Source: a phage
Assembly (NCBI GenBank): GCA_012813795.1
Contig: GCA_012813795.1_4087.1
Direction: 5' to 3' (one strand)
Length of the DNA stretch: 64,000 nucleotides
Numbering within the stretch: the stretch's first letter is position 1; the number at the start of each line of letters is the position of its first letter. Below are positions 3,023 through 50,438 of the stretch, piece after piece. The translations under genes and the position numbers were made by a program. The notes under the pieces are model-generated. The model saw only the letters and a program-made list of their open reading frames with translations, did no database searches and had not been told where the DNA came from.

Positions 3023-3622
3023 ATGAGTCTTAATTCTTTTAACCGTAACTATGGTATGTCTGCTAACTCCCGTGAGTACTGGGGTGGTGATAATGGTTTT
3101 GTAACCATCGTTGTTGATCTACCAGCAGATGTTGAAGTTGGTGCTACCAAAGTAACTTCCGATGGTTCTGAACTACAAGATGAAGCACTACAAACTGCGA
3201 TCACTAACGCACAATACAACCAATTCATGCTAACCCAACTACTACAACAACGTGCTGTTCTAGTTACTACTTCTGTACTAGCTCTTGACACTGACGTAGT
3301 AATCCCAGCGGATTTCAAAACTGTTGGCGGTAACGTAGTTGCTTTCGGTACTTCTGGTGCTGATGTTGCTGGCGGTGCTGGTTCTGTTGCACTAACCTTC
3401 ATCTGCGAACGTCAAGACGTTTTCGCTAAACAAGATGTTCGTCCAGGTGCTGCTTACTCTGTTCCAGTTGATCCAACTGTTGAACTAGCTAAAGTAATCG
3501 CTCAAGCTAAATTCTTCCGTACTAAATCTTTCGTAGATGTTACTACTGATGGTGTTGGTGATGCTGAAGCTGCTAAAGCTGTAGCTATTAAAGTTCGTGC
3601 TGCTCTACCAGTTCAACTATAA
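3023..3622 (+). CDS. hypothetical abundant late protein (paralog of 3638..4330)
   Basis: extreme codon bias (CTA, CGT, GGT, ACT, GTT), AAGGAG RBS, shares QQRAVLVTTS and TF(I/L)xER motifs with its neighbour. Confidence 0.8.
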   Translation: MSLNSFNRNYGMSANSREYWGGDNGFVTIVVDLPADVEVGATKVTSDGSELQDEALQTAITNAQYNQFMLTQLLQQRAVLVTTSVLALDTDVVIPADFKTVGGNVVAFGTSGADVAGGAGSVALTFICERQDVFAKQDVRPGAAYSVPVDPTVELAKVIAQAKFFRTKSFVDVTTDGVGDAEAAKAVAIKVRAALPVQL

Positions 3623-3637
3623 TATAAGGAGATTAAC

Positions 3638-4330
3638 ATGTCTAATATTAATACTTCTTTTGAACGAATTAACGGTTATTCTTTTGACAAAATTCTAGGT
3701 TATTTCTGTGGTACTAACGCCCTAGCTTCTATCGCTGTTAGTAAACTAGGTGACGTTAACGTGCGTGTTACTGGTGCAGTTGGTTCTTTTGCTGGTCTAC
3801 AACGTTTTCTAAACACTGATATTCCTGAAGTTATTACCGAATATCTAAATGACAAAGGTATCATCCGTATCGACGGTACTCCATTCGAAGTTGCCACTGT
3901 TGAAGCTGATTACAATGCTTCCTACGCTGCTCAAACTAACGTTAAACGTCTAGTTGATGTTGTTCAACAACGTGCAGTTGTTCTAAGTACTTCTGAAATC
4001 GGTGGTAATGATGCTTCCGCTCCACTAGCAGTCGAAGGTTTCACTAACGCAGTTGATGGTGTACTAAGTGTTGGTACTGTTGATATTGCAAGTGCTTCTG
4101 TTGTTACTTTCCTAGTTGAGCGTGCGAACGTATTTGACAAAGACCTCGTATCTTTCCAAGGCGTTCCAAGTACTGAAATCGAAGAAGGTCGCCTACTTAT
4201 CGACGATCTAACTGGTATCCCAATGCTTGCAAAAGATGGCGTTACTGAAGTCTTCCTAAAATCCCAAGCTGCTGATGCTGCTGGTGATTTCGGTATCAAG
4301 ATGTTCAAATCTATCCCAGCAATGGTTTAA
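3638..4330 (+). CDS. hypothetical abundant late protein (paralog of 3023..3622)
   Basis: same codon bias; shared motifs QQRAVVLSTS and TFLVERANVFDKD; followed by a terminator. Confidence 0.8.
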   Translation: MSNINTSFERINGYSFDKILGYFCGTNALASIAVSKLGDVNVRVTGAVGSFAGLQRFLNTDIPEVITEYLNDKGIIRIDGTPFEVATVEADYNASYAAQTNVKRLVDVVQQRAVVLSTSEIGGNDASAPLAVEGFTNAVDGVLSVGTVDIASASVVTFLVERANVFDKDLVSFQGVPSTEIEEGRLLIDDLTGIPMLAKDGVTEVFLKSQAADAAGDFGIKMFKSIPAMV

Positions 4331-10042: not shown

Positions 10043-10345
10043 TTAATAATCATCAGCTTGTGGTAGATTATTAGTTACGCTTAGGATAGTTTCGATGTTG
10101 TCTAGTTTGTTTTGCTTATCAAAGTAATCACCTTTGTAAATGCGTTGTGCAGCTTGTTTGATATCGGATGCATCAATACCTAGCTCATCAGAAAGAGAGT
10201 TGATGAAATCAGTATAGGAAGCTTTGGTATCATCAATAAAGGTTAGCTGTACCACTGCATTGTTTAGACCATCACTTAGACGTTTACGTTGTTCGTCGTT
10301 TAGGTCACGAATTTCTACTTTTGCTTCTTTTTTAGACTTAGCCAT
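10043..10345 (-). CDS. hypothetical protein
   Basis: ATG at 10345 with GGAGAT RBS; followed by a terminator. Confidence 0.5.
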   Translation of the reverse strand: MAKSKKEAKVEIRDLNDEQRKRLSDGLNNAVVQLTFIDDTKASYTDFINSLSDELGIDASDIKQAAQRIYKGDYFDKQNKLDNIETILSVTNNLPQADDY

Positions 10346-14477: not shown

Positions 14478-15653
14478 TTACATGAAAGTAACGTTTTTGA
14501 TAGCGATTTTGCTGTAGTAGTCAGCAGCATTACCCAAACTTGAAGTTGAGTCAGTGAGTTGCACGTAGCCATAGCGTGTTAAAAATGTCGTGACCAATTC
14601 TCCAGTGTTAGGGTCCATTACAGTACCAGAAGCCATTAGTGGGATGTATGGGCAATAGAATACACCAGCATCAGTTTCTGCATTACCTTTATAACCAATT
14701 AGAATATCTTCTACATCTGAGGCGTAAGTATCGACAAATATACGCATGGTGCTGTTTAGAGTACCAACGAATTTAACGTTAGTTGGTGCTTCAAAAGTAC
14801 CTTCAGTAGTACGTGCAAAGCTGGAAGTAGTTGCAGACTGTAGAATGGTTAGAGCAGTTGGGGAAACAACAGCCCAGTTCGCAGCACCACGTTTGGTACG
14901 ACGAGCAACTTCGTTCGCTTGACGGTTGATTAGGGTAGCTAGAGCAGCGTGCTCATCACCTACGAAGGTTGCAACGCCAGTAACTTTAGATTGGTCATAA
15001 GTTACAGCAGCAGCACCAGGTAGTGCACGTAGACGGCTTAGTAGCTCTTGGTCGATTTCAACGGTAACTTCTTGAGCGATAGCAGCCATTAGTTCAGCTT
15101 CAACGTCGATACCATGTTGAGATTGTGCATCTTGTGCAGATTCAACAGTCCAACGTGCAGATAGACGACGAGATTTCGCTTCAACAGTTTCACGTAGGAT
15201 ACGGATGTTAACGCGACGACCCATAGTACCTTCTAGTTGGCTAGTAGGAGCAGCTTGTGGGTTACTGTTGTCAGAGTTTAGCTCACCAGTGTAAGATTTA
15301 GCAATCTTGAATGGAGATAGCATTTCTTCGCCAGCTACAACACCTGGTGCGTTGTCAGCGTATTGAACACGTAGAGTGTGGATTTGACCAACTGGGCCAG
15401 TCATTGGTTGAACACCGATGATTTCGTTAGCGATAACGGTTGGCATTACACGACGCATAATTGGTAGAATCACTTTGTTTAGAGTAGCGATGTTACCAGC
15501 AGAAGTTGCACCAGAGGTTGCAGATTCTTGTAGCATAACTTTGCGATGGTTATCAAGTACGGTTTCCATTACAGATTTACGAGTACCTTGAAGACCTTCA
15601 ACTAGTTTCTCTTTAACTGCTACCCATTTGGATTCATTTAGTAGTTGTGACAT
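14478..15653 (-). CDS. 23: major capsid protein (T4 gp23-like)
   Basis: IGVQPM, VEAKSRRL, GYKGNAETDAGVFYCPY align to T4 gp23; strong CTA/CGT/GGT bias. Confidence 0.9.
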   Translation of the reverse strand: MSQLLNESKWVAVKEKLVEGLQGTRKSVMETVLDNHRKVMLQESATSGATSAGNIATLNKVILPIMRRVMPTVIANEIIGVQPMTGPVGQIHTLRVQYADNAPGVVAGEEMLSPFKIAKSYTGELNSDNSNPQAAPTSQLEGTMGRRVNIRILRETVEAKSRRLSARWTVESAQDAQSQHGIDVEAELMAAIAQEVTVEIDQELLSRLRALPGAAAVTYDQSKVTGVATFVGDEHAALATLINRQANEVARRTKRGAANWAVVSPTALTILQSATTSSFARTTEGTFEAPTNVKFVGTLNSTMRIFVDTYASDVEDILIGYKGNAETDAGVFYCPYIPLMASGTVMDPNTGELVTTFLTRYGYVQLTDSTSSLGNAADYYSKIAIKNVTFM

Positions 15654-15745: not shown

Positions 15746-16864
15746 TTATTTTTTATTGATACCAGAAAGAACGTCGAGTTCTTTTAGGAATGCCATATCG
15801 TCAGCGGTCATTTCTTCGCTTTCAACAATAGCCTGACGGTTGCCAGTGATTACTTTACCTTCTGCTAGGGTTGTTTTCTTCGCTGAAGGTTGAACTGCTT
15901 GACGAGTGGTAGCAGATTCATTTACTTTAGTACCGTTAAGTACAGACTTATGGTACTTGCTGAAATCTTCTTTAAGCTTTTCTGTTGGAGAAGCAGCTAG
16001 AAGGGATTCCATAATTTGTTTTTGTTGACTAGTCAAAGGCTTAACCAATTCAGACATAATCGCATTGCGTGCCTGTGTATCTTCCATGATACGTAGTTTT
16101 GATTGAACTTCTTTAACTGCGTTAACAGATTCATTTAGTTCTTGTTTAACTTGAGCAATCTCATCTTCTTTAGATTTGATTGATTCAGTCAAAGAACGAA
16201 GTAGTGAATTCTCATTAAATTGTTTGGTATTAAATTCTTGAGCAAATGCTTCAAAGATTTTACGACCGAACATATTTTGTTTAGCTTCAGCAAGATCTTG
16301 TTTCAAAGCGTAAAGATTTTTCTGAGTGGTTTCTGCAATATATTTAGCAGCACTTTCAGAGGTACGTTTGATAAAGTTATTACGTGCTTCTGCAATTTGA
16401 CGAGAACCTTCAGCAAGTAGTTTTACACGAGCTTCTACTAGTTGACGTTTTTCGCTGTGGAATTCTTTTAGTTCTTCAGCTAGGATACCGTTAGAGAAAT
16501 TAACGAATTTACCGAGGCTTTCTTGAACTAGTTTACGTTCGTTACGCATTTGTTTAACTTCTTCAGCTAGTACTGAATTAGCGAATTCAGAGAAGTTACC
16601 AAGAGTTTTACGGAGGGTAACGCGGTCTTCAACGAGACGTTTTTTCTCGTCATATACTGCACCCATTTCTTCAGCGATAACTTGAGTAACCATAGTGTTA
16701 AGACCTTCTGTTAGTTCAGCTAGGTCTTGTTTATAACGGCCTTTCATTTCTTCACGCATTTCAGCGGCTAGTGTGTTCTTTTCTTCATTCCATGCTTCCT
16801 GAATTAGCTGTTTTGCTTCATCAGAAAGAGATGATTCTTTTAGAAGCTTTTCTAATTTAGACAT
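15746..16864 (-). CDS. 22: prohead core scaffold protein (gp22-like)
   Basis: charged coiled-coil-like protein between protease and capsid genes; TATAAATA upstream. Confidence 0.65.
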   Translation of the reverse strand: MSKLEKLLKESSLSDEAKQLIQEAWNEEKNTLAAEMREEMKGRYKQDLAELTEGLNTMVTQVIAEEMGAVYDEKKRLVEDRVTLRKTLGNFSEFANSVLAEEVKQMRNERKLVQESLGKFVNFSNGILAEELKEFHSEKRQLVEARVKLLAEGSRQIAEARNNFIKRTSESAAKYIAETTQKNLYALKQDLAEAKQNMFGRKIFEAFAQEFNTKQFNENSLLRSLTESIKSKEDEIAQVKQELNESVNAVKEVQSKLRIMEDTQARNAIMSELVKPLTSQQKQIMESLLAASPTEKLKEDFSKYHKSVLNGTKVNESATTRQAVQPSAKKTTLAEGKVITGNRQAIVESEEMTADDMAFLKELDVLSGINKK

Positions 16865-17583: not shown

Positions 17584-18426
17584 TTAGAATTTTGGTTGTG
17601 ATTTTGGTAGTGGGGAACGAGACTTAGAAGAACCAGTGGTTACTTTCTTAACGTCTTTCATTACGCCTTTGCCGCTATCCATAACATTATTCATGTCGTC
17701 TGGTACAGTGTGAGATTCAGTGTCTACGCCATCAAATTTGTCATCAACTACTGGAGTTGAGCTTTTAGCGATTTTTACTGGAGCTACGCCTTGTACTGGA
17801 GATTTAGCTTGGGAAGCGACTGGGGATTTAGTATTTGCACCAGCTTTTTCTTTCTTATCAACATCAGCAACTGCTTTTAGTTTGAAAGACTCACCAACTT
17901 TTTCATCACCGAATTGAACATCAGCAAAATCATCACCGCCGTCTTCGGAACCAACTTCTAGATCAACTTCTTCTTCGCCACCTACTGGTTCTTCAGCGTC
18001 TAGGTCAACTTCACCTTCGCCGGAGATTTCATCAAACATTTGTTGTAGGCCACGGAAAGCATCTTGAATGGAAGCCCATTGGTCTTCGGAAGGGACTTCT
18101 TCACCTTCTGCACCAACTTCACCTTCAGAATCTTCTTCACCAGCTTGGAATTCGATATCATCTTCAGCACTCTTGTCTTCTTCACCAAGAGAATATTCGA
18201 TTTGACTATTAAGACCAGCATCTGGGGAAACGTCGAAGTCTTCTTCTAGTTTCTCTTCTTTGTCGTCTTCATCGCAGCATTCTTCGTCGTCCATGCTTTC
18301 TTCTAGTTCTTTGTTAATTTCTTGTGCTTGTTCAACAAAGTACTTACGCATTTTTTTATCAGCTACATCTTGCTCGCCGTTAGCAAAAGCTTCGATTGCT
18401 TCTTGTAGTAGTTTTAAATTAGCCAT
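17584..18426 (-). CDS. acidic prohead core / internal head protein
   Basis: Asp/Glu-rich; ATG at 18426 with GGAGGA RBS; late-promoter-like motif upstream. Confidence 0.55.
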   Translation of the reverse strand: MANLKLLQEAIEAFANGEQDVADKKMRKYFVEQAQEINKELEESMDDEECCDEDDKEEKLEEDFDVSPDAGLNSQIEYSLGEEDKSAEDDIEFQAGEEDSEGEVGAEGEEVPSEDQWASIQDAFRGLQQMFDEISGEGEVDLDAEEPVGGEEEVDLEVGSEDGGDDFADVQFGDEKVGESFKLKAVADVDKKEKAGANTKSPVASQAKSPVQGVAPVKIAKSSTPVVDDKFDGVDTESHTVPDDMNNVMDSGKGVMKDVKKVTTGSSKSRSPLPKSQPKF

Positions 18427-18460
18427 TATATCCTCCAAAGATATATTTAATTCCTATAAA

Positions 18461-40426: not shown

Positions 40427-40460
40427 TCAAATGAATGAACGAATTTATGGAGTCCTATAC

Positions 40461-43400
40461 ATGACTAATAATTTTAAGTTTCTACCAACTAAAACGGCAG
40501 AAGCAGTACAACAGAAGCTTTTCATTAAAAGATTACCTGAATGGATGCAAGGCTTAGAAGACATTCAAAAGGTTAGTGATGATGTAATTCAACAATGGTT
40601 CAATCCAGCGGATAATGAAATCGTTGATGGATATATTGGTGATATGGGTTCTCCTGCTGCATCTGCTAAGATTTTCCTTGACGAATCAACCGTTGAACGT
40701 CAGCTATATCAATTATCAACAGCATATGTGTCTCGTAATGATGACACAAGCATTCGTTCGCTTCAATTTTATGATGATTTGGTTGGCTACATGGAACACT
40801 ATGGCACGTTAACTTCAAACGAGAGCCGTCTATTTTCTGGTAAGTTCTATTCTTGGACACCACCAATTAACCCAAACAAAATGACCAACTATAGTTCTTA
40901 TTTGTGGGATAGTAAAAATAGTTTTGGTATCACATCACCTGACTTTATTGTTATGGAACGTGGTGCTGATAACGGTAACACTTGGTCACTACAGAACTTT
41001 TGGTATACTATTGGACAAACCCTAGAAGATGGTACAGTACTAACTGCTGACATGACGCAGGATACTCGTTTTATTCGTGCACAAGCACCAATCATCGAAT
41101 ATAATAAAAACATCGAATTAATCAACTACGGAACAAATTTCCGTGGTATTGTTGACCTATTCTCTGATACAGTTAAACCAGAAGATATCGTTCAAAAGGA
41201 CGTTAACGATGGTATTCGTATCGATGGTATCATTCCACAAGATGGTATGCGTATTCTATTCACCAGTATCGGTAACGTTGGTGAAAACAACCGCATTTAT
41301 AAAGTTTTTATAAAGAAAATGCAAGATGGTTCTCGTACCTATGGTTTGGCACTAGATCCTGACGAGGAATCAGAAGAACGCCCAAGTGGTGAACCCCATA
41401 ACGGTGATGTAATTTTGGTGCGTGATGGTAATGTATATAAAAATACATCCATGTACTGGAATGGTGTTGATTGGGTTAGAGCACAAACCAAATCTGGTAT
41501 CAACGTGTTCCCACAATTCCAATTGTATGACCGTGATGGTTTCAAATTAAACGACACTACTATGTATCCATCAAGTAATTTCGTTGGATCATCACTATTT
41601 GGTTTCAAAATTAACTATAATTATGGCACTGATAAAGTATACGGTTATAATATTGAATTAGGTAATTATAATTACTACATGTACGAAAACTTTCTTCAAA
41701 GTGTTCGTTATACATATGATCATTTGGGTGTTGAAACAGAAATTTCTGGATTATATTACTATAATGTAGTTGGTAAAGATAATGAACTTCACCTTAAGAC
41801 CGATTGGGTTCGCTCAAAGGAAGATTCAAAACAATTTGTTAAACAAACACCACAAATCGAACATACTGATATGTATCGTGTATTCAATACTGTATTTGAA
41901 ATGGAAAACTTCAAAACTCCATTAGAAGGTATGTATGCATATGTCATTGAAGTTGATCGTACCTATCAATATTACAAAGAAGAACGTCAAACCTATATGG
42001 ATTGGCATGTAATTAGTGGTGAAGGTATTCAAAGTGAACGTTTCAATCGCACATTTGAATTAGCCCAGAAAATTATTGATGGTAAGAGTACTGAAATCAT
42101 TGAAATTCAAGTTGATGGTGTGGATGTAACCGATTATACACGTCATGTATATAATAACAAGGTTCAAAGCATCACTTTAGGGGAAGACGTTACTCTTAAA
42201 GATGAATCAGTAATTCAAATTAGAACATATAGCAGTACGGAAGTACCAAATAAAGAGTTGGGTGCATATGAAATCCCAATTAACTTACAAAATAACCCAT
42301 ACAACGATAATATTCTTTATATCAACCAAAGTAATTTTACATTACATTTTAAAGATATCATTCAAAAGAATATTACCAGTGGTTCAGTTGATGATTTCAA
42401 TGACTACGAAGAGCGTTTGTCTAAAGGTTTAGTAGATAACTCTGTAGGTACTAAGATTATCCAAAACGAAGCATCTATGCTACCGTTAATGGCACATTCT
42501 GCAAATGAAGACATTGACCTATTTGAATCTGTATTGTTTATGCAATCAGAGTACTTTCGTTTTGTAAACAAGTTCAATACACAAATGATTCGTTTGTATA
42601 ATGAGAACCCAGCAAACTTCTTAGCTAATAATGCTTCTAATATTGTTGATGAAATTCTAACAATTATTAATATGGGTCATGATAATACATTCCCATTCTA
42701 TTATGACAACGTGGCAAGTACTTCTGGTTTCATTCGTGCTTTTGTACCACCAACTCCACAGTTCTTAGGTATTTTAAAAGCTCACGTTCCAGAAAAAGCA
42801 ACATTTTTGAATGCTGGTAGTAAGCAAAGCTGCTATAACATCAGCCATACTGGTGCAATCACCAAAGCATACCGTGTAATTAACGGTGTTGATAAAATGG
42901 ATGACGTTATATATGAATTAGAAAATCGAATCTTCAATAGTATTGATGTTATTTTCAAAGATGAAGATTACCAACCTAAGCTAGATGCTTCTGACCTTTT
43001 CCCTACTCCGTATTTTAGAGATACAGAGTATAATGATGAAGAGAAGAAGAACTTACTACTACGTGGTTACATTAACTTCATCGCAACCAATGGTATCAGT
43101 AACAGTTCGCATGATTATGATCCAAATAACTGGATGACTTGGAATTATACTGGAACTTATTACATTGTTAATGGTCAACAAACACAAATACCAGCACGTG
43201 GTTCATGGCGAGCAATCTACACTGACCAATTTGGTACATATCGCCCAGCAACCCATCCGTGGGAAATGTTTGGATTCTCCCAACGTCCGGTTTGGTGGAA
43301 CCAAGAGTACGAACCAACAGCAGTTCAAGTTGGTGAACGCGACAGTGATGTTGTTTATGTATATGAGGCATTGGTTCTCAACGAACAAGGTAACATGGTC

Positions 43401-46400
43401 CCTAGTGGGTTGTGGGATGTTGGTAATGAGAAAGGTGATAGCTCAACTGGAACTATCTTATTTGGTGCACGTAAAGGCCAATATGACAAGTATAAACGTT
43501 TTGGTACACAACCATTCAAGATCACCAAAACAGGCAAGCAGACTGCTTCTGGTGTTGATATTTGCGTTATTGAGTACATTGCACCTGAAGTATTAGGTCT
43601 TGTTTATGGTAGTTTGAATCATCGTGCTGAACCTTGGACCTATGGTGACATGGGTGACATGGAATTCACATACATGAACACCTCAATGTTCGCATATGAT
43701 GAATTAATGTTGTTATTCAAAGCTAAACCTGCACAATTCACCAACTATTTCTGGAATACTCGAAATAATACATTAAAAACTGTATCTGGTAACGAACCAC
43801 AGTTTTTATATGGTGATACTCGTTTACGTTTGAACTTTAACAGTGATACAATAGTACATGGTGAGAATAGCACTCGTGTTATTGGTTATCAAATGATTGT
43901 TAGTAACTATTTGATGTATCAAAACAAAAACATCACTACTAAGTACGGTGAAGTTGTTCGTTCTTCTCATATTAATGTTGGTCATAAACTAGGTGGATTC
44001 ACTAAAGCTGACCAATTAACATTTACGTCAGAAGCAACTGGTCTAATTTCACAAGAAAACCAATCTATCGGGTTAGTTCGTTCTAATAATATTAGAAATG
44101 AGCAAATGAGTGCAATTAAAATTACTTGGACTGGTAGTGCTTACCAAATTGATGGTTATGATTTAGTTTCTGCAACATTCAATTATAAATTGCCTGTTAA
44201 AAACGGTCATAAAGTAACTTTGAAAGTTGATAATCGTAATGTTGTTCATTATAATGAGTGGAAAAATGATGCATCAATCCCTTACGGAACTTTGATGAAT
44301 ACATTCCAAGAAGTTTACACATTTATTTGTGGTTATGGTGAGTATCTCAAACAACATGGTTGGATTTTTGAAGAAGTTGATGAATCTGGTATCCAACAGG
44401 ACTGGAATACAATTGCAAAAGACTTTTTAATCTGGAGTCAACAACAATTGAGTACTGGTGAATTCATTTCATGTACTCCATCTGCAATTAAAGCCAAATT
44501 TGGTACAGATTTTGGTTCAGTACAGTCAATTACACAAAATAGTGGTGGTGTTTGGTCACTATTAGATGATTCAAACCAAGGTATCCGTCAATTTGAGATT
44601 GAAACATCTCGTATTGGTAATATATTCACGGTGAGAACTACTGAAGAATCAAATAAACGCATGGCACTTATTCGTTTAAGTATCAGTTCATATGAACATG
44701 CTGTTATTTTTGATGATCAGACTATTTTCGGTGACTATATCTACGAACCAACCTATGGTGCAGTTCAAGAATTGATTAAATTGTATGGATATATCACTGG
44801 TTCATGGTCTGGTCGCTTACAAGCTCCTGGATTTATCATCCTAGAAGCTGGAACATTACCATCATTTGAAACATTGGTATCAAATTTCCAACAGTATTAT
44901 GATAATGAAACTCCAGTTAGTGATGTTCAATTGAATGAACTATCAAATCACTTAATTGGTTATCAGTCTCGCGATTACTTACAACGTATGATCACCAACG
45001 AGCCTGGTAGAATTGATTTCTATAAAGGTTTCATCCACGATAAAGGTACTAACCAAGTACTAGAAAAAGTACTACGTGTATCTAAATCATATAATACTGA
45101 TGAGTATAAAGCATTACAAGAATGGGCATTCCGAGTTGGTTCTTATGGTAACATTGATGGGGTTAAAAATCTTCAATTTAAACTAATTAATAATGAGTTT
45201 AAACAACAACCACAAATGATTTCGTTTGACCGCTATGCTGATAAGGTAGAGTCAGAGAATGAGATCGTATATTATGGTGAAATTGGTGAAGATTCACGCT
45301 GGATTAGTCGTCCTAAAGGTAAATTCTCATTACCTATGCGTAGTGGAAGAAGTGAGAACATCCAATTACCTAATATTGGCCCAGTAACCTTAGATGAAAT
45401 TGATTATACCACATTGAATTATGAAACGGCTAATCAAGATCGCATTAGTTACACGAATAACTTTGGCAAAATACCAACATCTGTTTGGATGTTCCAAGAT
45501 ATTAATAACGAATGGAATATATATGATTTGGTAGACACTGGTATTACAATGGTTTCCATTACACCAATAGAGAATAGCGACCCATATGCTGAGCAATATT
45601 GTAAAGTACTATTGTCTGATGACATCCCACTAATGGATGGTGATTATTACTATTTCGTTGATGAAACAAACTTTATGCCTGACGCACTACGTGAAGAAGG
45701 TCAATATTACACTTCTGGACTAAATCCAAAAGTTATGGTTGTGCCATTTGACACTTCTATCACTATTGACTTCTCAACTGTAGAATCAGCACCACGTTTG
45801 TATCGTTATGTTAGTAGATTCAGCACTCAACAAGAACGTGATGATTATATTGCTAAAAAATACAGTTACAGTGCACCTGAAAGTACTTTGTTTGACCGTC
45901 CTACTACGTATGATGAAAGAACAAACATCACTGCATTGTATTTGAATGTGTTTGACCCAATCAATGGTGTTATTCCTGGTGTAGCAATGCAAGATGTTGA
46001 TTTCATCTCCCCTGTTGATCCAGCACAATATAGCAGTAATGGTGAACTATTACAAGCATGGGGTGCTGAAAAGGTAGGTAAGGTATGGTGGAACACTAGT
46101 ACTGCATTCTATCTGGATTATACCCGTCCAATCTTTGATGAGGATGGAAACGTTGATGTAAAAGCAACTAATGAATATAAGCGTTATAATTGGGGTAAAT
46201 TATTACCACACAGTGTTATTGATGTTCTAGAATGGGTTAGTTCACCAGTAGAACCATACAACTGGGAAAAATATTGTGCAGAACAAGCCAATAAAAATAA
46301 AAACAACACCATGTATCTCCCAAGTGGGGTTGCGATGGATGATAACTATAGTTCATCTATGGAATATGATCCAATCACCGATACATATGTAGTTCGTTAT

Positions 46401-49400
46401 TATTTCTGGGTTCGTAATACAATTTATGTTCCACCAATGACTACTCGTAGTAAGTCTTGTACTGATATTGCACGTATTATTCAAGATCCAACACAATTGA
46501 ATGTTCCTTGGTTTGCACCTATTAACGAAAATAGTTTCATTCTAAGTAATATGCAATTTGAAGTTAATGATGATACAAGCATTTTGACAATTTCATATAG
46601 AAATGACAATATTGAAGTCCTGAAGCATGACCAATATCAACTTTGTAAAGAAGGTGATAGTTATGACTTTAACCCAGATATTTGGAATTCTCTATGGAAC
46701 TCACTAATTGGTCAAGAAACTACTTCAACTGGTGTTGTAAATGAAATAGTTTATCCTAAAGTTGAAACTGGTTTGGGTTCTAATAAAACTTGGTTCCAGA
46801 ATGTTATTGAAGCTCGTCGTGCGTTTGTTGAGAGTGCTAATAACTTTTACCGTTCACATAACATCACAACTAACAGTGTTGTTATGAATGATGTCTTTAA
46901 TGTTAAAACATTAAAAATGAACCCGAATGATATTACATTCCGTGTTCTATCATTTAACAATGAATTGGTAATTGCACCAGAAGACAACCGCTTCAAAGAG
47001 AATGATGCAGTATTTGTAAGTTCCATTGGAACATTACCAGCACCATTATCTTCAAGTTCTGTATATTTTGTTCACATTGATCCAAATGGATACATTCAAT
47101 TGATGAACAGTCCAAGCACAGTTGGTAGTACTGTCACAATCACTCTAGAAAATAGAGGCGAAGGTCAACACAAGATGATTAAACAAGCTGACTTCATTGA
47201 ATCACTTGGTACATCGTTGGATATGACACAGTACTGGAATCTAGCTGATTGGTACGATACTGGATACGATAGTAACACTGAATATACACAAGAAGTTAGT
47301 TTAGATGACGCAAACACTAAAAATTACCAAATTGGTGATATTATCCGTGTAACTGATAGTGATGGCGTTTGGACATTATACATCAAGACTGCATCTCGCA
47401 ATAATGTATACTGGAGAGCTATTGGACGTGAGAATAGTACTGTTGAATTGAATTCAATGTTATATTCTAGTTACAATGTTTATAATGATGATGGTTCTTT
47501 GAATTCTCATGAGGTTAACGTTCGTAATGCGTTAGCGTTGTTGAAAAATTCATTCGATTTATATCAAAGTAATATTGTATTTGATATGGTTAAGTACGTG
47601 CACACTGAACAAAGTGTTGTTGATTGGGTATTCAAAACCTCCTATATCTATATCGTAGGTTTGGAGCAATCACTAGTACAGAACTACTCAAATGACAACT
47701 TGATTAATCAAATTGTTGAGTACTTCGAGGAAGTTAAACCATACAGAACCAAAATCCGTTCTCAAATCGAACAGAAAACTTCTGATGATGATTTGATTAA
47801 TGGTATTAGTAATGACCTTGACCCAGATGGCTATATTTTAGTTGATGGTGTGTGGGTTAAGACTGAAAAAGACATTTGGGATTTAGAATATGCACAATTC
47901 AATGATGTAACTCAACGTTGGGAAAAGATTGGTTCACTACCAAGTGACTTTATCACACCTAATAGACGATTCCAAGAAATAGACGTTATTATGCATTATG
48001 ATAATATTCAATGTGAACAGTATGATAGTAATTATACAATTGATGAGTTGAAATCAACCAATAGTAAGTATCAATCCAACGAGGCTGATGTAGGTAATAA
48101 TTATGAATTACAGAGATATGTTTATACATTCCCTGAATATGATAATAATACCTTAATTTCACAAATTGGTATTGAAATGACTACCAAATATTCAGATTTG
48201 GATATTAGTAATGGTGTTATTAAAGGAATTGATGCATGGTATAAAGCACATTCAACTGATATCGCATCAACTGACCAATTTACTACTGATTTGGAGCAGG
48301 TAACTGCTGATACAAACAATAGTAATATTTTAGAAGATGTTAAAAAATATATTCAATATAATACATTAGCAACTCGTGTGAAAATGTTTAATAATATATC
48401 TGATGATATGGTTTCTAATGAGATTGGTTGTCCGTTTAAGGGTACAAACTATAATGATAATCCTAATACTCGCCTCCCATTCGGGTTTAGTGCAAGTAGT
48501 GATTATAACTATGGTTATTTTGAGATTAGTATTGAACTATATGAAAAATATGTCGATATGATCAAGAAAAATCACCCAGAGTTTACAAACGAAGACCAAA
48601 TTCGTAACATTCTTGAAATAGAATATGGTGTTTATTGCTACAAGTATGATACCACATTAAATGACCGTTATTATTCTGATACCGTTCATGTTTTATCTGC
48701 TATGCGACAAACATTTAATAAGAATATTCTAGATCATTATTATGTTGCTAGAGAAATCTTAAGTAATCGTTCAGTTGAGAAGTATGCTTTTGTTATGATG
48801 CCAAGAAAGTATGTGTATGTTGTGAATGCGGCGGGTGAATATCTACCGATTCCTGAAAGTTACAGCATATCTGATTTCATGGAAGACTTGTTCATAACAA
48901 CCGGAGAATCAGTTGTATTGGCTGAAATTGATTTAAATGATTTACCACAAGACCAGAATAATCCTATGTATTCTGCATACATTGAAGTACTGGAAAGTAT
49001 TAATACCGCGAAATATTTCAATGATATGAACGCATTCGATAACTTGGCATTGGAATCACAAACCAAGTCCATTAAATGGGAAGTTAAAGATAGTGAGATT
49101 GATCCTTATATCATCGACATTTCTGAACTAAACCCATCAGGAAGAACAATGGCACAATTGCGTTTCACTGTTGATGGTTATGGTTTCGATGAAGTTGCTC
49201 AAGAGCAATTAAAAGACACGAGTAGATTCCAAATTGAGGGTATGATCGTACAGAACCCTTACAATATGTCAGAAGCAATTGTAAGTATTCCATCATATGA
49301 TATTGTCATCGAGAATATGGGTAAAGATGTGTTTAAAGATTCAGAAAAATACTTCTTCCCAATTTCAGAAATTAAAACAATTACTGAAATCAAGGTTCAT

Positions 49401-50438
49401 GATGAAGGATTGAAAAATGGTGATAAGGTTGTGATTTTCACACCAGATGGTGAAGATTATGTACGATTCCAAGATGGTGAATGGGTAACTATACTAAGTG
49501 CTAGTAAAATCCAAACCTCCAAAAAACCAAAACTGTACACTGTGCGTGTATTGGGTAACGGAAACGTTGAGTTGGTTGATGGTAACGGTGTTGCATTGAT
49601 GTTTGATAGTGTAACTAAGCGTGAAAGTAATGAGCGTTTTTATACATTATCAATGAACTTAGTTAGAATCCGCACTTTCCAAGACCCTGAGTTTGATGAC
49701 AATGGCCTTAAACTATATGAAAATAATCGTCATTATAGTATACATGCATTGAACTATGAAGTATTCTATGACGAAACATTATATGGTGGTAAATTCAATG
49801 ATGGTATCACATCTGATGAGATTGATTTGTGGTTAGTTTCCAATGAGATTTTTGAAGTTGATGGTATTACAATTGATAATGGTTATAATCAACCAATCAC
49901 TGGTAAAGGTGTTCTAGGTGAACTAGTACGAGCTAAAATGACTGATGGTATTGAAATCACTGTATTTGAATACGATGTTGATGTTATTCAACCAGTACTA
50001 AGTTATGATCGCGTGTGGCAGTATGCACAACCAGTGGTCAATAACACGTTCATCAAAGAGGTAGGATGTAATGTTATTAACATTACAACTGTTGAAGATG
50101 AGGCAATCACTTATGTTGCTAAACCTCGTTCAATAAGCCCATATATCATTACTGATTCAGTACTGTCAGGTGCTGCGGCACAGAATGATGATATTATTGT
50201 GGTTGGATATGAGAAGGTTCAGGTAAGAAATACTGATCGTCTATTACGTGGTGTCATGTATAGTGCGGAGCATAATTTCACAAAAGGAACTTCTTATAGC
50301 TTCAATGGATTGAACTTAGGAAGCATTGATAAGTTTACTCAATATCAAAACTTCTATCCACCAATTCCATTAGAGACATTCAGAAATGGATTGTCAATTA
50401 CTGGAACCGATATCGAAAAACTTTTGAATATTCAATAA
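40461..50438 (+). CDS. giant virion structural protein (about 3325 aa) at the gp7 position
   Basis: single uninterrupted frame; GGAG RBS before the ATG at 40461 (first in-frame ATG at 40431 lacks an RBS); terminators on both sides. Confidence 0.8.
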   Translation: MTNNFKFLPTKTAEAVQQKLFIKRLPEWMQGLEDIQKVSDDVIQQWFNPADNEIVDGYIGDMGSPAASAKIFLDESTVERQLYQLSTAYVSRNDDTSIRSLQFYDDLVGYMEHYGTLTSNESRLFSGKFYSWTPPINPNKMTNYSSYLWDSKNSFGITSPDFIVMERGADNGNTWSLQNFWYTIGQTLEDGTVLTADMTQDTRFIRAQAPIIEYNKNIELINYGTNFRGIVDLFSDTVKPEDIVQKDVNDGIRIDGIIPQDGMRILFTSIGNVGENNRIYKVFIKKMQDGSRTYGLALDPDEESEERPSGEPHNGDVILVRDGNVYKNTSMYWNGVDWVRAQTKSGINVFPQFQLYDRDGFKLNDTTMYPSSNFVGSSLFGFKINYNYGTDKVYGYNIELGNYNYYMYENFLQSVRYTYDHLGVETEISGLYYYNVVGKDNELHLKTDWVRSKEDSKQFVKQTPQIEHTDMYRVFNTVFEMENFKTPLEGMYAYVIEVDRTYQYYKEERQTYMDWHVISGEGIQSERFNRTFELAQKIIDGKSTEIIEIQVDGVDVTDYTRHVYNNKVQSITLGEDVTLKDESVIQIRTYSSTEVPNKELGAYEIPINLQNNPYNDNILYINQSNFTLHFKDIIQKNITSGSVDDFNDYEERLSKGLVDNSVGTKIIQNEASMLPLMAHSANEDIDLFESVLFMQSEYFRFVNKFNTQMIRLYNENPANFLANNASNIVDEILTIINMGHDNTFPFYYDNVASTSGFIRAFVPPTPQFLGILKAHVPEKATFLNAGSKQSCYNISHTGAITKAYRVINGVDKMDDVIYELENRIFNSIDVIFKDEDYQPKLDASDLFPTPYFRDTEYNDEEKKNLLLRGYINFIATNGISNSSHDYDPNNWMTWNYTGTYYIVNGQQTQIPARGSWRAIYTDQFGTYRPATHPWEMFGFSQRPVWWNQEYEPTAVQVGERDSDVVYVYEALVLNEQGNMVPSGLWDVGNEKGDSSTGTILFGARKGQYDKYKRFGTQPFKITKTGKQTASGVDICVIEYIAPEVLGLVYGSLNHRAEPWTYGDMGDMEFTYMNTSMFAYDELMLLFKAKPAQFTNYFWNTRNNTLKTVSGNEPQFLYGDTRLRLNFNSDTIVHGENSTRVIGYQMIVSNYLMYQNKNITTKYGEVVRSSHINVGHKLGGFTKADQLTFTSEATGLISQENQSIGLVRSNNIRNEQMSAIKITWTGSAYQIDGYDLVSATFNYKLPVKNGHKVTLKVDNRNVVHYNEWKNDASIPYGTLMNTFQEVYTFICGYGEYLKQHGWIFEEVDESGIQQDWNTIAKDFLIWSQQQLSTGEFISCTPSAIKAKFGTDFGSVQSITQNSGGVWSLLDDSNQGIRQFEIETSRIGNIFTVRTTEESNKRMALIRLSISSYEHAVIFDDQTIFGDYIYEPTYGAVQELIKLYGYITGSWSGRLQAPGFIILEAGTLPSFETLVSNFQQYYDNETPVSDVQLNELSNHLIGYQSRDYLQRMITNEPGRIDFYKGFIHDKGTNQVLEKVLRVSKSYNTDEYKALQEWAFRVGSYGNIDGVKNLQFKLINNEFKQQPQMISFDRYADKVESENEIVYYGEIGEDSRWISRPKGKFSLPMRSGRSENIQLPNIGPVTLDEIDYTTLNYETANQDRISYTNNFGKIPTSVWMFQDINNEWNIYDLVDTGITMVSITPIENSDPYAEQYCKVLLSDDIPLMDGDYYYFVDETNFMPDALREEGQYYTSGLNPKVMVVPFDTSITIDFSTVESAPRLYRYVSRFSTQQERDDYIAKKYSYSAPESTLFDRPTTYDERTNITALYLNVFDPINGVIPGVAMQDVDFISPVDPAQYSSNGELLQAWGAEKVGKVWWNTSTAFYLDYTRPIFDEDGNVDVKATNEYKRYNWGKLLPHSVIDVLEWVSSPVEPYNWEKYCAEQANKNKNNTMYLPSGVAMDDNYSSSMEYDPITDTYVVRYYFWVRNTIYVPPMTTRSKSCTDIARIIQDPTQLNVPWFAPINENSFILSNMQFEVNDDTSILTISYRNDNIEVLKHDQYQLCKEGDSYDFNPDIWNSLWNSLIGQETTSTGVVNEIVYPKVETGLGSNKTWFQNVIEARRAFVESANNFYRSHNITTNSVVMNDVFNVKTLKMNPNDITFRVLSFNNELVIAPEDNRFKENDAVFVSSIGTLPAPLSSSSVYFVHIDPNGYIQLMNSPSTVGSTVTITLENRGEGQHKMIKQADFIESLGTSLDMTQYWNLADWYDTGYDSNTEYTQEVSLDDANTKNYQIGDIIRVTDSDGVWTLYIKTASRNNVYWRAIGRENSTVELNSMLYSSYNVYNDDGSLNSHEVNVRNALALLKNSFDLYQSNIVFDMVKYVHTEQSVVDWVFKTSYIYIVGLEQSLVQNYSNDNLINQIVEYFEEVKPYRTKIRSQIEQKTSDDDLINGISNDLDPDGYILVDGVWVKTEKDIWDLEYAQFNDVTQRWEKIGSLPSDFITPNRRFQEIDVIMHYDNIQCEQYDSNYTIDELKSTNSKYQSNEADVGNNYELQRYVYTFPEYDNNTLISQIGIEMTTKYSDLDISNGVIKGIDAWYKAHSTDIASTDQFTTDLEQVTADTNNSNILEDVKKYIQYNTLATRVKMFNNISDDMVSNEIGCPFKGTNYNDNPNTRLPFGFSASSDYNYGYFEISIELYEKYVDMIKKNHPEFTNEDQIRNILEIEYGVYCYKYDTTLNDRYYSDTVHVLSAMRQTFNKNILDHYYVAREILSNRSVEKYAFVMMPRKYVYVVNAAGEYLPIPESYSISDFMEDLFITTGESVVLAEIDLNDLPQDQNNPMYSAYIEVLESINTAKYFNDMNAFDNLALESQTKSIKWEVKDSEIDPYIIDISELNPSGRTMAQLRFTVDGYGFDEVAQEQLKDTSRFQIEGMIVQNPYNMSEAIVSIPSYDIVIENMGKDVFKDSEKYFFPISEIKTITEIKVHDEGLKNGDKVVIFTPDGEDYVRFQDGEWVTILSASKIQTSKKPKLYTVRVLGNGNVELVDGNGVALMFDSVTKRESNERFYTLSMNLVRIRTFQDPEFDDNGLKLYENNRHYSIHALNYEVFYDETLYGGKFNDGITSDEIDLWLVSNEIFEVDGITIDNGYNQPITGKGVLGELVRAKMTDGIEITVFEYDVDVIQPVLSYDRVWQYAQPVVNNTFIKEVGCNVINITTVEDEAITYVAKPRSISPYIITDSVLSGAAAQNDDIIVVGYEKVQVRNTDRLLRGVMYSAEHNFTKGTSYSFNGLNLGSIDKFTQYQNFYPPIPLETFRNGLSITGTDIEKLLNIQ

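What the first reader, a model, noticed from the sequence alone, without database searches (positions are those of the whole stretch)
14478..15653. CUA is the preferred leucine codon in highly expressed late genes
The capsid, the paralog pair at 3023-4330 and the long fiber gene use CTA for most leucines, together with CGT, GGT, ACT and GTT, whereas the ClpA gene uses a mixed set. This points to a host with CUA-adapted translation or a phage tRNA-Leu(UAG) elsewhere in the genome, and to different expression class or origin for the less biased genes.
Basis: seen in the sequence. Interest (0 to 1): 0.4.

Follow-up and report, generated by a model that had tools for sequence, protein, structure and literature searches.

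The report
Late genes favour host's rarest leucine codon
The most abundantly made proteins of this giant E. coli phage spell leucine almost only as CUA, the leucine codon absent from the E. coli ribosomal-protein genes sampled here, and neither the phage's own tRNA genes nor the host's known tRNA supply explains why.

Summary
The major capsid gene (14478-15653, minus strand) uses CTA for 24 of 30 leucines. The paralog pair uses it for 12/14 and 14/17, against 24.5% for the window. The 10-kb structural gene shows no excess (49/209). The ClpA-like gene is mixed (24 CTA, 19 CTG of 72).

The bias is in-frame and tracks expected protein abundance. CTG is avoided completely: 0 of 121 leucines in six top genes.

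The window is an Asteriusvirus, a 121Q/RaK2-like jumbo coliphage. It is 100% identical over 15.4 kb to a contig from the E. coli read set SRR2034070.

Twenty-four E. coli ribosomal-protein genes have 0/231 CTA and 81% CTG. The tRNA island found in that same sample holds only Ser, Ser, Met, Asn and Thr. The closest complete relative, A4, has six tRNAs and none for leucine. Sister genera do carry tRNA-Leu(UAG) and show the same bias.

Synonymous sites between tRNA-less lineages are saturated, yet CTA stays at 64-67%. The preference is therefore actively maintained. CUA presumably depends on the host's minor tRNA-Leu(UAG). Why it is favoured remains unexplained.

The parts
14478..15653 (-). Major capsid protein gene (T4 gp23-like), the core of the finding: CTA 24/30 Leu, CTG 0
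   Evidence: PHROG 138 E = 6e-98; corrected p = 4e-9
3023..3622 (+). Virion structural protein, paralog B (PHROG 9326): CTA 12/14, CTG 0
   Evidence: corrected p = 9e-5
3638..4330 (+). Virion structural protein, paralog A (PHROG 9326): CTA 14/17, CTG 0
   Evidence: corrected p = 3e-5
10043..10345 (-). Small 100-aa protein (PHROG 12534, weak match to a transcription-regulator PHROG): CTA 8/9. The ORF lister extends it to 10387 with a GTG start.
   Evidence: corrected p = 4e-3
17584..18438 (-). Virion structural protein between portal and prohead protease (PHROG 15696): CTA 9/12
   Evidence: corrected p = 0.014
15746..16864 (-). Scaffolding protein gene (named from the A4 and 121Q annotation): CTA 17/38, CTT 12, CTG 0; a moderate bias
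61091..64000 (+). The 5' 970 codons of a long tail-fibre gene that runs off the window end (homologue of A4_569): CTA 38/90, TTA 30, CTG 1; a moderate excess
   Evidence: p = 1.7e-4
40431..50438 (+). Counter-example: CTA 49/209, equal to the window mean
50476..52761 (-). ClpA/ClpB-family AAA+ gene. Contrast case: CTA 24, CTG 19 of 72, the highest CTG share in the window

Best explanation
The CTA excess is an actively maintained translational codon preference of the most highly expressed genes of a RaK2/121Q-like jumbo coliphage (genus Asteriusvirus).

It belongs to a wider rule in these genes. They use the T-ending codons that E. coli also prefers (CGT, GGT, ACT, GTT). They never use the host's favoured G-ending codons CTG, CCG and CAG, and take the A-ending CTA, CCA and CAA instead.

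In sister genera (Mimasvirus, Eneladusvirus) matching phage tRNAs exist: Leu-UAG, Pro-UGG and Gln-UUG. This phage's lineage has no tRNA-Leu(UAG). Its CUA codons must therefore be read by the host's single-copy minor tRNA-Leu(cmo5UAG), encoded by leuW.

Shown here: the bias, its link to expected abundance, its restriction to the reading frame, its persistence over saturated synonymous divergence, and the absence of the phage tRNA where I could look. Inferred: decoding by host leuW. Unresolved: what makes CUA fitter than CUG in the infected cell.
For: Size and significance of the bias in the window.

Frame restriction: CTG occurs 0 times in frame and 110 times in the +1 frame in the six top genes. 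The same holds in A4.

Link to abundance: the genome-wide ranking in A4 puts capsid 25/30, sheath 39/65, SSB 19/22 and the paralogs 15/17 and 12/14 at the top. Capsid (1620 copies) and sheath are the most abundant virion proteins of phAPEC6.

High set versus rest in A4:
- CTA .68 vs .18
- CTG 0/247 vs .09
- CCA .75, CAA .91, CGT .90

Host contrast: E. coli ribosomal-protein genes have CTA 0/231, CTG .81, CCG .64 and CAG .75. T2, an AT-rich myovirus of the same host, uses CTG 17/30 and CTA 0/30 in gp23.

Identity of the genome: the window is 100% identical over 15,433 bp to Logan contig SRR2034070_28.

No phage tRNA-Leu(UAG): same-sample tRNA island, the whole A4 genome, EJP2, JNE01 and Turkey5 with Leu-UAA only, other contigs, and published tRNA lists.

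Sister genera carry tRNA-Leu(UAG) and show the same bias.

Active maintenance: in five non-capsid top genes, codon identity at conserved 4/6-fold residues between the window and EJP2 is 0.51. That equals the 0.51 expected if codons were drawn independently. Yet CTA is 0.64-0.67 in all four tRNA-less genomes, against 0.37-0.67 in eight tRNA-rich-type relatives. Nine of 14 newly arisen leucines are CTA, and only 1 of 23 CTA losses went to CTG. In distant relatives the capsid's preferred leucine codon varies (CTA, TTA, TTG, CTT, or CTG up to 88%), so the trait is evolvable.
Against: By the usual supply argument CUA is the worst choice in E. coli. From my own knowledge: leuW is single-copy, its tRNA is the least abundant leucine acceptor (Dong et al. 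1996), and leuW is added in CodonPlus-RIL/Rosetta strains because CUA limits expression of AT-rich genes.

A rough estimate makes host supply tight. It takes 1620 capsid copies, about 96 virions per burst and 24 CUA per copy. That gives several million CUA readings per cell on fewer than about 1000 tRNA molecules.

Only about 96 kb of this phage's roughly 358-kb genome was inspected.

Parsimony counts show more CTA losses (23 synonymous plus 10 residue losses) than gains (10 plus 9) inside the genus. This could mean slow decay, although the method is biased towards that result.

Expression levels are inferred from protein roles and from a relative's proteome, not measured for this phage.
Confidence: 0.55

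Rival explanations
1. The phage encodes its own tRNA-Leu(UAG) in the part of the genome outside the window, and the late genes are tuned to it, as in phage CBB.
For: Sister genera carry exactly this tRNA, placed just after the peptidyl-tRNA hydrolase gene, and have the same capsid bias. tRNA islands in this genus vary between close relatives. About 260 kb of this phage's genome was not examined.
Against: - The tRNA island of the same sample holds five tRNAs and no Leu.
- A4-type hydrolase loci have abutting ORFs and no tRNA.
- The closest complete genome, A4, has none by three methods and no BLAST remnant of the CBB tRNA.
- No examined or published Asteriusvirus has one.
Confidence: 0.07
2. 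This is an evolutionary-legacy explanation. The bias was set when an ancestor carried tRNA-Leu(UAG). The tRNA was lost recently and the codons have not yet drifted, so there is no present-day selection for CTA.
For: - Capsid synonymous sites are only 16-36% changed across the clade.
- Klebsiella phage RaK2, which is tRNA-poor, has shifted part-way to CTG (16 CTA, 7 CTG).
- Losses of CTA outnumber gains in the parsimony count.
Against: - In the other top genes, synonymous sites between the window lineage and EJP2 are saturated (0.51 observed, 0.51 expected), yet both keep 64-67% CTA.
- The tRNA-less genomes have the highest CTA share of the 12 genomes compared.
- New leucines are mostly CTA, several needing two base changes.
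- There is no drift to CTG or TTA, although such changes are common in less expressed genes.
Confidence: 0.08
3. This is avoidance rather than attraction. Late in infection the host's major C34 tRNAs (Leu-CAG, Gln-CUG, Pro-CGG) are unavailable. They could be cleaved by host anticodon nucleases, or inactivated by the phage as a host shut-off. Late genes have therefore purged CTG, CAG and CCG, and the U34-read A-ending codon is what remains.
For: - All three host-optimal G-ending codons are shunned together.
- In A4, CTG is 10-21% of leucines in regions of small, presumably early ORFs and 2-5% in the core and late modules.
- The phage encodes RNA ligase, polynucleotide kinase/phosphatase, a CCA-adding enzyme and a peptidyl-tRNA hydrolase, a tRNA-repair-type toolkit.
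- From memory only: T-even infection cleaves a host leucine tRNA (Kano-Sueoka and Sueoka 1960s; Yudelevich 1971).
Against: - No nuclease or target has been identified.
- G-ending codons are avoided in every codon family, including those with a single tRNA (AAG, GAG), so AT pressure plus a general preference for A/T endings may suffice.
- It does not explain why CTA beats CTT, TTA and TTG.
- T2 still uses CTG in gp23.
Confidence: 0.12
4. The natural host has CUA-adapted translation, and the phage simply mirrors the host's highly expressed genes.
For: For Arg, Gly, Thr, Val and Ile the top genes do mirror E. coli's optimal codons.
Against: - E. coli ribosomal-protein genes have CTA 0/231.
- All close relatives are isolated on E. 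coli or Salmonella.
- The window's DNA lies in an E. coli isolate data set.
- From my own knowledge, other Enterobacterales hosts of the clade also prefer CUG.
Confidence: 0.02
5. The bias is due to chance or base composition. CTA is common because the genome is AT-rich, and small leucine counts exaggerate it.
For: The genome is 34-40% G+C, and CTA is already 19-25% of leucines overall.
Against: - Corrected p values reach 4e-9.
- The mutationally favoured TTA falls from .31 to .04 in the top genes.
- The effect is restricted to the reading frame.
- It is reproduced in orthologues from 12 genomes.
Confidence: 0.01

Closest known systems
Expression-class codon usage in T-even phages (Cowe and Sharp 1991, cited from my own knowledge; T2 tested here)
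   Same: Both are AT-rich myoviruses of E. coli with a gp23-type capsid. Codon choice differs by gene class, and the most expressed structural genes are the most biased.
   Different: T2 gp23 follows the host: CTG 17/30, CTA 0, CAG 20/27, CCG 10/21. This phage does the reverse for Leu, Gln and Pro, with CTA 24/30, CTG 0, CAA 16/17 and CCA 11/14.
Phage tRNAs serving late structural genes whose codons are rare in the host (Shigella phage Sf14, PMC12482277; XacN1, PMC5852040; CBB, PMC5259590; the rule of Bailly-Bechet et al. 2007 from my own knowledge)
   Same: The codon is frequent in phage late genes and rare in the host. The sister genera fit the model fully, with tRNA-Leu(UAG), Pro(UGG) and Gln(UUG) present.
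   Different: In this lineage the cognate tRNA gene was not found, and the bias is as strong or stronger. The tRNAs it does carry (Ser-UGA, Thr-UGU, and Gly-UCC in relatives such as A4) read codons that the top genes avoid.
Rare-codon limitation in E. coli (AGA/AGG, AUA and CUA; leuW supplied in CodonPlus-RIL and Rosetta strains; my own knowledge)
   Same: The same codon and the same host tRNA are at issue.
   Different: In that setting CUA is a handicap for foreign genes. Here it appears to be selected for in genes that must be translated most.

Membership tests
Translational selection on codon usage in highly expressed genes | Bias increases with expression level | tested here: met
   The top CTA genes are capsid, sheath, SSB, scaffold and virion paralogs. 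Abundance is supported by the phAPEC6 virion data. Expression was not measured for this phage.
Translational selection on codon usage in highly expressed genes | The effect is confined to the reading frame and so is not a DNA-motif or composition effect | tested here: met
   CTG occurs 0 times in frame and 110 times in the +1 frame in six top genes. The same holds in A4.
Translational selection on codon usage in highly expressed genes | Preferred codons match the host's codon choice in its highly expressed genes, used as a proxy for its most abundant tRNAs | tested here: not met
   This is met for Arg, Gly, Thr, Val and Ile. It fails for Leu, Pro and Gln: the phage uses CTA, CCA and CAA, while E. 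coli ribosomal-protein genes use CTG .81, CCG .64 and CAG .75.
Translational selection on codon usage in highly expressed genes | The bias is maintained beyond what shared ancestry gives | tested here: met
   Synonymous sites are saturated between the window and EJP2 (0.51 observed, 0.51 expected), yet CTA stays at 0.64-0.67.
Phage-tRNA-compensated codon usage | The codon is common in the phage and rare in the host | tested here: met
   CTA is 24.5% of window leucines and 68% in the top genes, against 0/231 in host ribosomal-protein genes.
Phage-tRNA-compensated codon usage | The phage encodes the cognate tRNA, here anticodon UAG | tested here: not met
   None was found in the window, in the same-sample tRNA island, in the whole A4 genome, or in EJP2, JNE01, Turkey5 and other contigs. 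About 260 kb of this genome was not seen. The feature is met in CBB, GAP32 and the Yersinia and Erwinia phages.
Asteriusvirus (121Q-like jumbo coliphages) | Close nucleotide similarity and synteny with type members | tested here: met
   Identity is 94.7% to phage A4 over 8 kb and 82-86% to 121Q, PBECO4 and BF17. Gene order matches A4, 121Q and EJP2.
Horizontally acquired, host-like gene (for the ClpA-like gene) | Codon usage and composition closer to the host than to the rest of the phage | tested here: inconclusive
   It has the highest CTG share (19/72) and the highest local G+C (0.405) in the window. It still has 24 CTA and is conserved in the clade (PHROG 4871). No phylogeny was made.

The most novel reading that the evidence does not exclude
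Asteriusvirus infection may remodel leucine, glutamine and proline decoding. The host's dominant C34 tRNAs (Leu-CAG, Gln-CUG, Pro-CGG) would become unusable late in infection, through phage-directed shut-off or host anticodon nucleases. Alternatively, the pool of U34 tRNAs would be raised by a route not visible in the genome. Late genes would then have been purged of CTG, CAG and CCG and run on CUA, CAA and CCA without a phage tRNA for them. Sister genera that carry Leu-UAG, Pro-UGG and Gln-UUG genes would be solving the same problem in the ordinary way.
Probability: 0.12. Interest if true: 0.75.

Novelty: new variant of a known kind. Interest (0 to 1): 0.5.

Why it matters
Codon bias in abundant phage proteins is normally explained in one of two ways. 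Either the phage copies the host's preferred codons, or it brings its own tRNA. Here a well-sampled group of E. coli phages apparently does neither.

Their most abundant proteins rely on a leucine codon absent from the host ribosomal-protein genes sampled, and they avoid the host's best one completely. This pattern holds over evolutionary distances at which silent sites have been fully reshuffled.

Sister genera with and without the matching tRNA carry the same bias. That is a natural experiment on what phage tRNAs are for, and on whether codon preference or tRNA gene comes first. It can be tested directly with cultivable phages such as 121Q, phAPEC6 and Sharanji on E. coli K-12.

The result also bears on engineering and producing these therapy-candidate phages, and on predicting hosts from codon usage. 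Codon-based host prediction would be misled for Leu, Pro and Gln.

Tried and rejected
1. Hidden or intron-containing tRNA-Leu in A4. ARAGORN with introns on the joined genome and Rfam covariance models both found the same six tRNAs. BLAST with the CBB tRNA-Leu(UAG) gave only 11-base chance hits.

2. 'tRNA-Leu' annotated in JNE01 and Turkey5. The anticodon is UAA. A 119-nt 'tRNA-Leu' annotated in Turkey5 is AT-rich sequence that neither tool calls a tRNA.

3. DNA-motif avoidance of CTG/CAG. Rejected, because CTG is abundant out of frame.

4. C34-to-U34 editing of host tRNAs by a phage deaminase. A4 has two zinc deaminases. One looks like a dCMP deaminase. The other (122 aa) has no specific family but is conserved in the tRNA-rich sister genera and in phiKZ-like phages. 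Its distribution therefore gives the idea no support.

5. Looking for the peptidyl-tRNA hydrolase neighbourhood in IMG/VR found nothing. IMG/VR has no close Asteriusvirus; its best capsid match is 92%.

6. Finding the window's phage in complete E. coli genomes gave no match. The exact 1154-aa baseplate protein is not on record.

7. Five full-text searches found no report of this bias.

8. My first gene list included two antisense artefact ORFs (61438-61935 and 63229-63849). They overlap the real fibre gene on the plus strand. Their effect on the background is negligible.
Full report
**What the window is**

The 64-kb window is 34-40% G+C and contains no tRNA gene. An 8-kb stretch around the finding is 94.7% identical to Escherichia phage A4 (Asteriusvirus, 355.5 kb, host E. 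coli LF82). It is 82-86% identical to 121Q, PBECO4, BF17 and other jumbo coliphages of the RaK2-like group.

The gene at 14478-15653 (minus strand) is the gp23-type major capsid protein. It matches PHROG 138 and is 99.7% identical to the A4 protein. Gene order matches A4, 121Q and EJP2.

The window's DNA is 100% identical over 15,433 bp to contig 28 of the Logan assembly of read set SRR2034070. Proteins from that sample also appear in an NCBI 'Escherichia coli' assembly, on a 357,761-bp contig with ABV23_ locus tags. The host is therefore E. coli.

**Checking the observation**

Per-gene leucine counts and leave-one-out binomial tests over 49 ORFs give these results:

| Gene | CTA / Leu | Corrected p |
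|---|---|---|
| Capsid 14478-15653 | 24/30 | 4e-9 |
| Paralog 3638-4330 | 14/17 | 3e-5 |
| Paralog 3023-3622 | 12/14 | 9e-5 |
| 10043-10345 | 8/9 | 4e-3 |
| 17584-18438 | 9/12 | 0.014 |
| Scaffold 15746-16864 | 17/38 | not significant |

The window mean is 24.5% CTA.

In capsid plus paralogs they are CGT 31/36, GGT 53/62, ACT 53/70 and GTT 63/92. The CTA share correlates with them across genes (rho 0.57, p = 3e-5).

It has 49/209 CTA, flat along its length. A second fibre gene is cut by the window end at 61091-64000 and has 38/90 CTA. The ClpA-family gene is mixed, with 24 CTA and 19 CTG of 72.

In the six top genes CTG is never used in frame but occurs 110 times in the +1 frame. The effect therefore acts on codons, not on DNA words or composition.

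**The bias follows expected expression**

I assembled A4 from eight fetched pieces and called 568 ORFs. The genes most enriched in CTA were the following:
- a long tail-fibre subunit, 74/158
- capsid, 25/30
- tail sheath, 39/65
- ssDNA-binding protein, 19/22
- the two paralogs, 15/17 and 12/14
- a 100-aa protein, 8/9
- a virion protein, 9/12
- a tube-region protein, 13/23
- scaffold, 17/38

In the relative phAPEC6, capsid (1620 copies) and sheath are the most abundant virion proteins. An unassigned decoration protein is present in as many copies as the capsid protein. The paralog pair are candidates for that role, but this is a guess.

Ten top genes against the rest of A4 compare as follows:

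| Codon | Top genes | Rest |
|---|---|---|
| CTA | .68 | .18 |
| TTA | .04 | .31 |
| CTG | 0/247 | .09 |
| CGT | .90 | .49 |
| GGT | .78 | .64 |
| ACT | .67 | .44 |
| GTT | .67 | .43 |
| CCA | .75 | .55 |
| CAA | .91 | .72 |

*Host.* Twenty-four ribosomal-protein genes of E. coli K-12 use CTA 0/231, CTG 186/231, CCG .64 and CAG .75. They share CGT, GGT, ACT and GTT with the phage's top genes. The top genes thus copy the host for Arg, Gly, Thr, Val and Ile and invert it for Leu, Pro and Gln. T2 is another AT-rich myovirus of E. coli. Its gp23 uses CTG 17/30, CTA 0/30, CAG 20/27 and CCG 10/21.

*Phage tRNA.* The evidence against a tRNA-Leu(UAG) in this lineage is as follows:
- A4 has six tRNAs: Ser-UGA, Gly-UCC, Ser-GCU, Met/Ile-CAU, Asn-GUU and Thr-UGU. 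ARAGORN with and without introns and Rfam covariance models all find them in one island.
- For the window's own genome I traced two further contigs of SRR2034070 through homologues of island proteins. They carry Ser-UGA, Ser-ACU, Met-CAU and Asn-GUU on one contig and Thr-UGU at the very start of the next.
- EJP2, a deep branch of the genus, has Thr, Ser, Arg, Ser, Ser and Met.
- JNE01 and Turkey5 have a tRNA-Leu, but with anticodon UAA.
- Five other contigs have none.
- Published lists for fEgEco12 and Sharanji have none.

By contrast, Pectobacterium phage CBB has tRNA-Leu(UAG) directly after its peptidyl-tRNA hydrolase gene. It also has two Pro-UGG, one Gln-UUG, two Leu-UAA and one Leu-CAA. 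Homologous tRNA-Leu genes lie at the corresponding position in GAP32, Yersinia fHe-Yen9-04, Erwinia phages and Xanthomonas XbC2. A4 and the window hold no remnant. A4-type hydrolase loci leave no room for one.

**The bias does not depend on the phage tRNA**

Capsid orthologues compare as follows:
- Without the tRNA: window 24/30, A4 25/30, 121Q 25/30, BF17 26/31, EJP2 25/30.
- With the tRNA: CBB 25/29, GAP32 24/29, Erwinia 22/29, Yersinia 17/29.
- RaK2, which is tRNA-poor, has 16 CTA and 7 CTG.

Over four top genes, CTA is 0.64-0.67 in the four tRNA-less genomes. It is 0.37-0.67 in CBB and seven IMG/VR relatives of Mimasvirus or Eneladusvirus type. Over six top genes the shares are window 84/121, A4 86/120, 121Q 88/131, EJP2 75/111 and CBB 71/111.

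**Inheritance or selection**

The capsid gene alone cannot decide, because only 16-36% of its 4/6-fold codons differ across the clade. The other top genes can.

At conserved 4/6-fold residues, the window and EJP2 share the same codon at 0.51 of sites. That is exactly what independent draws from their codon frequencies would give. For the window against CBB the figures are 0.59 observed and 0.53 expected. Silent sites are saturated, yet each lineage holds about two-thirds CTA.

Parsimony inside the genus shows the following:
- 9 of 14 new leucines are CTA, several needing two changes (ATG, GCT or GTT to CTA).
- CTA exchanges mostly with CTT: 16 of 23 losses and 7 of 10 gains.
- Only one loss went to TTA and one to CTG. 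In less expressed genes 12 of 36 losses went to TTA and 5 to CTG.
- Losses do outnumber gains (33 to 19, counting residue turnover). Polarising on one outgroup that is itself mostly CTA inflates losses, and the totals show no decline.

In more distant relatives (64-72% capsid identity) the favoured leucine codon is CTA in 39 of 78. In the others it is TTA, TTG, CTT, or CTG at up to 88%. The trait can therefore change when selection changes.

**What this means mechanistically**

- Shown: a frame-specific preference for CTA that tracks expected abundance and is actively maintained, with total exclusion of CTG, in a coliphage lineage where no tRNA-Leu(UAG) was found.
- Inferred: CUA is read by the host's tRNA-Leu(cmo5UAG). 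From my own knowledge this comes from the single-copy gene leuW, is the least abundant leucine acceptor, and is supplied in CodonPlus-RIL and Rosetta strains because CUA limits foreign expression.
- A rough demand estimate takes 1620 capsid copies, about 96 virions per burst in Sharanji and 24 CUA per copy. That is several million readings per cell for the capsid alone. Supply looks tight.
- Unresolved: why CUA is fitter than CUG in the infected cell.

One lead is that CTG, CAG and CCG are shunned together. In E. coli these are read by the dominant C34 tRNAs. In A4, CTG makes up 10-21% of leucines in regions of small, presumably early ORFs but 2-5% in the core and late modules. The phage also carries an RNA ligase, a polynucleotide kinase/phosphatase, a CCA-adding enzyme and a peptidyl-tRNA hydrolase. 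This fits a late-infection cell in which C34 tRNAs are unavailable.

It fits equally well a general preference for A/T-ending codons on an AT-rich background, because G-ending codons are low in every family. A phage deaminase editing C34 to U34 was considered. The candidate is conserved in tRNA-rich relatives and in phiKZ-like phages, so its distribution gives no support.

**Comparison with what is known**

The phenomenon belongs to translational selection on phage late genes. It matches the T-even paradigm in being tied to gene class and differs in direction. In the sister genera it matches the picture of phage tRNAs serving late structural genes (Sf14; XacN1; CBB). In this lineage it fails that family's defining feature, the cognate tRNA. 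Five full-text searches found no description of it.

**Verdict**

This is a new variant of a known kind. Interest is moderate (0.5). The counts are solid and the mismatch with both standard explanations is clear and testable. The cause is open, and about three-quarters of this phage's genome was not seen.

Noticed in passing
window 61091-64000 (+): An open frame of 970 codons starts at 61091 and runs off the window end. It is the 5' part of a long tail-fibre gene (homologue of A4_569, 1845 aa). The ORF lister omits it and instead shows two antisense ORFs (61438-61935 and 63229-63849, minus strand), which are probably artefacts.
   Followed up: partly
L117 4881-4972 (contig SRR2034070_259, same genome as the window); also L101 11200-11291, L107, L110, L111, L120 18657-18746: These loci carry a long-arm tRNA-Ser with an A at the wobble position (anticodon ACU). 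It is a different gene from the tRNA-Ser(GCU) of A4 and Turkey5, and EJP2 has both. From my own knowledge, A34 is rare in bacterial tRNAs outside tRNA-Arg(ACG). If it were deaminated to inosine it would also read AGA, an arginine codon.
   Followed up: partly
window 50476-52761 (-): The ClpA/ClpB-family AAA+ gene has the highest CTG share in the window (19/72) and sits in the window's most G+C-rich stretch (0.405). A4 also encodes ClpP-like proteases and a 'protease adapter'. Its origin and role were not examined.
   Followed up: no
proteins P0003, P0014, P0024, P0025, P0030, P0038, P0039, P0044, P0093-P0097: Asteriusvirus genomes appear as single 345-360-kb contigs in many NCBI assemblies labelled Escherichia coli, including this window's phage. 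This suggests frequent carriage of these lytic jumbo phages in cultured isolates, or contamination of those cultures.
   Followed up: no
A4 (L001-L008), 10-kb bins: Leucine CTG use is 10-21% in the regions of small ORFs (0-90 kb and 290-340 kb of A4) and 2-5% in the 140-270 kb core and structural region. CAG/Gln follows the same trend. This is a module-level codon gradient opposite to the one described for T4.
   Followed up: partly
L116 1-74 and L117 end (contigs SRR2034070_88 and _259): The short-read assembly of the window's phage breaks exactly at tRNA-Thr(UGU). That tRNA is tandemly duplicated in JNE01 and Turkey5, so the break is probably a repeat-induced gap. This phage may therefore have two copies.
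   Followed up: no
L003 5612-5980 (A4_486) and L002 41049-41528 (A4_461): A4 encodes two zinc-deaminase-fold proteins. One resembles dCMP deaminase (ComEB type). The other (122 aa) fits no curated family, yet it is conserved across the RaK2-like clade and in phiKZ-like and cyanophage genomes.
   Followed up: partly
L006 39300-42400 (A4 289.3-292.4 kb): The peptidyl-tRNA hydrolase neighbourhood of A4 has almost no nucleotide match in other GenBank Asteriusviruses; only its last 600 bp align. Near-identical copies exist in a few read-set assemblies, so this accessory region is highly variable.
   Followed up: no
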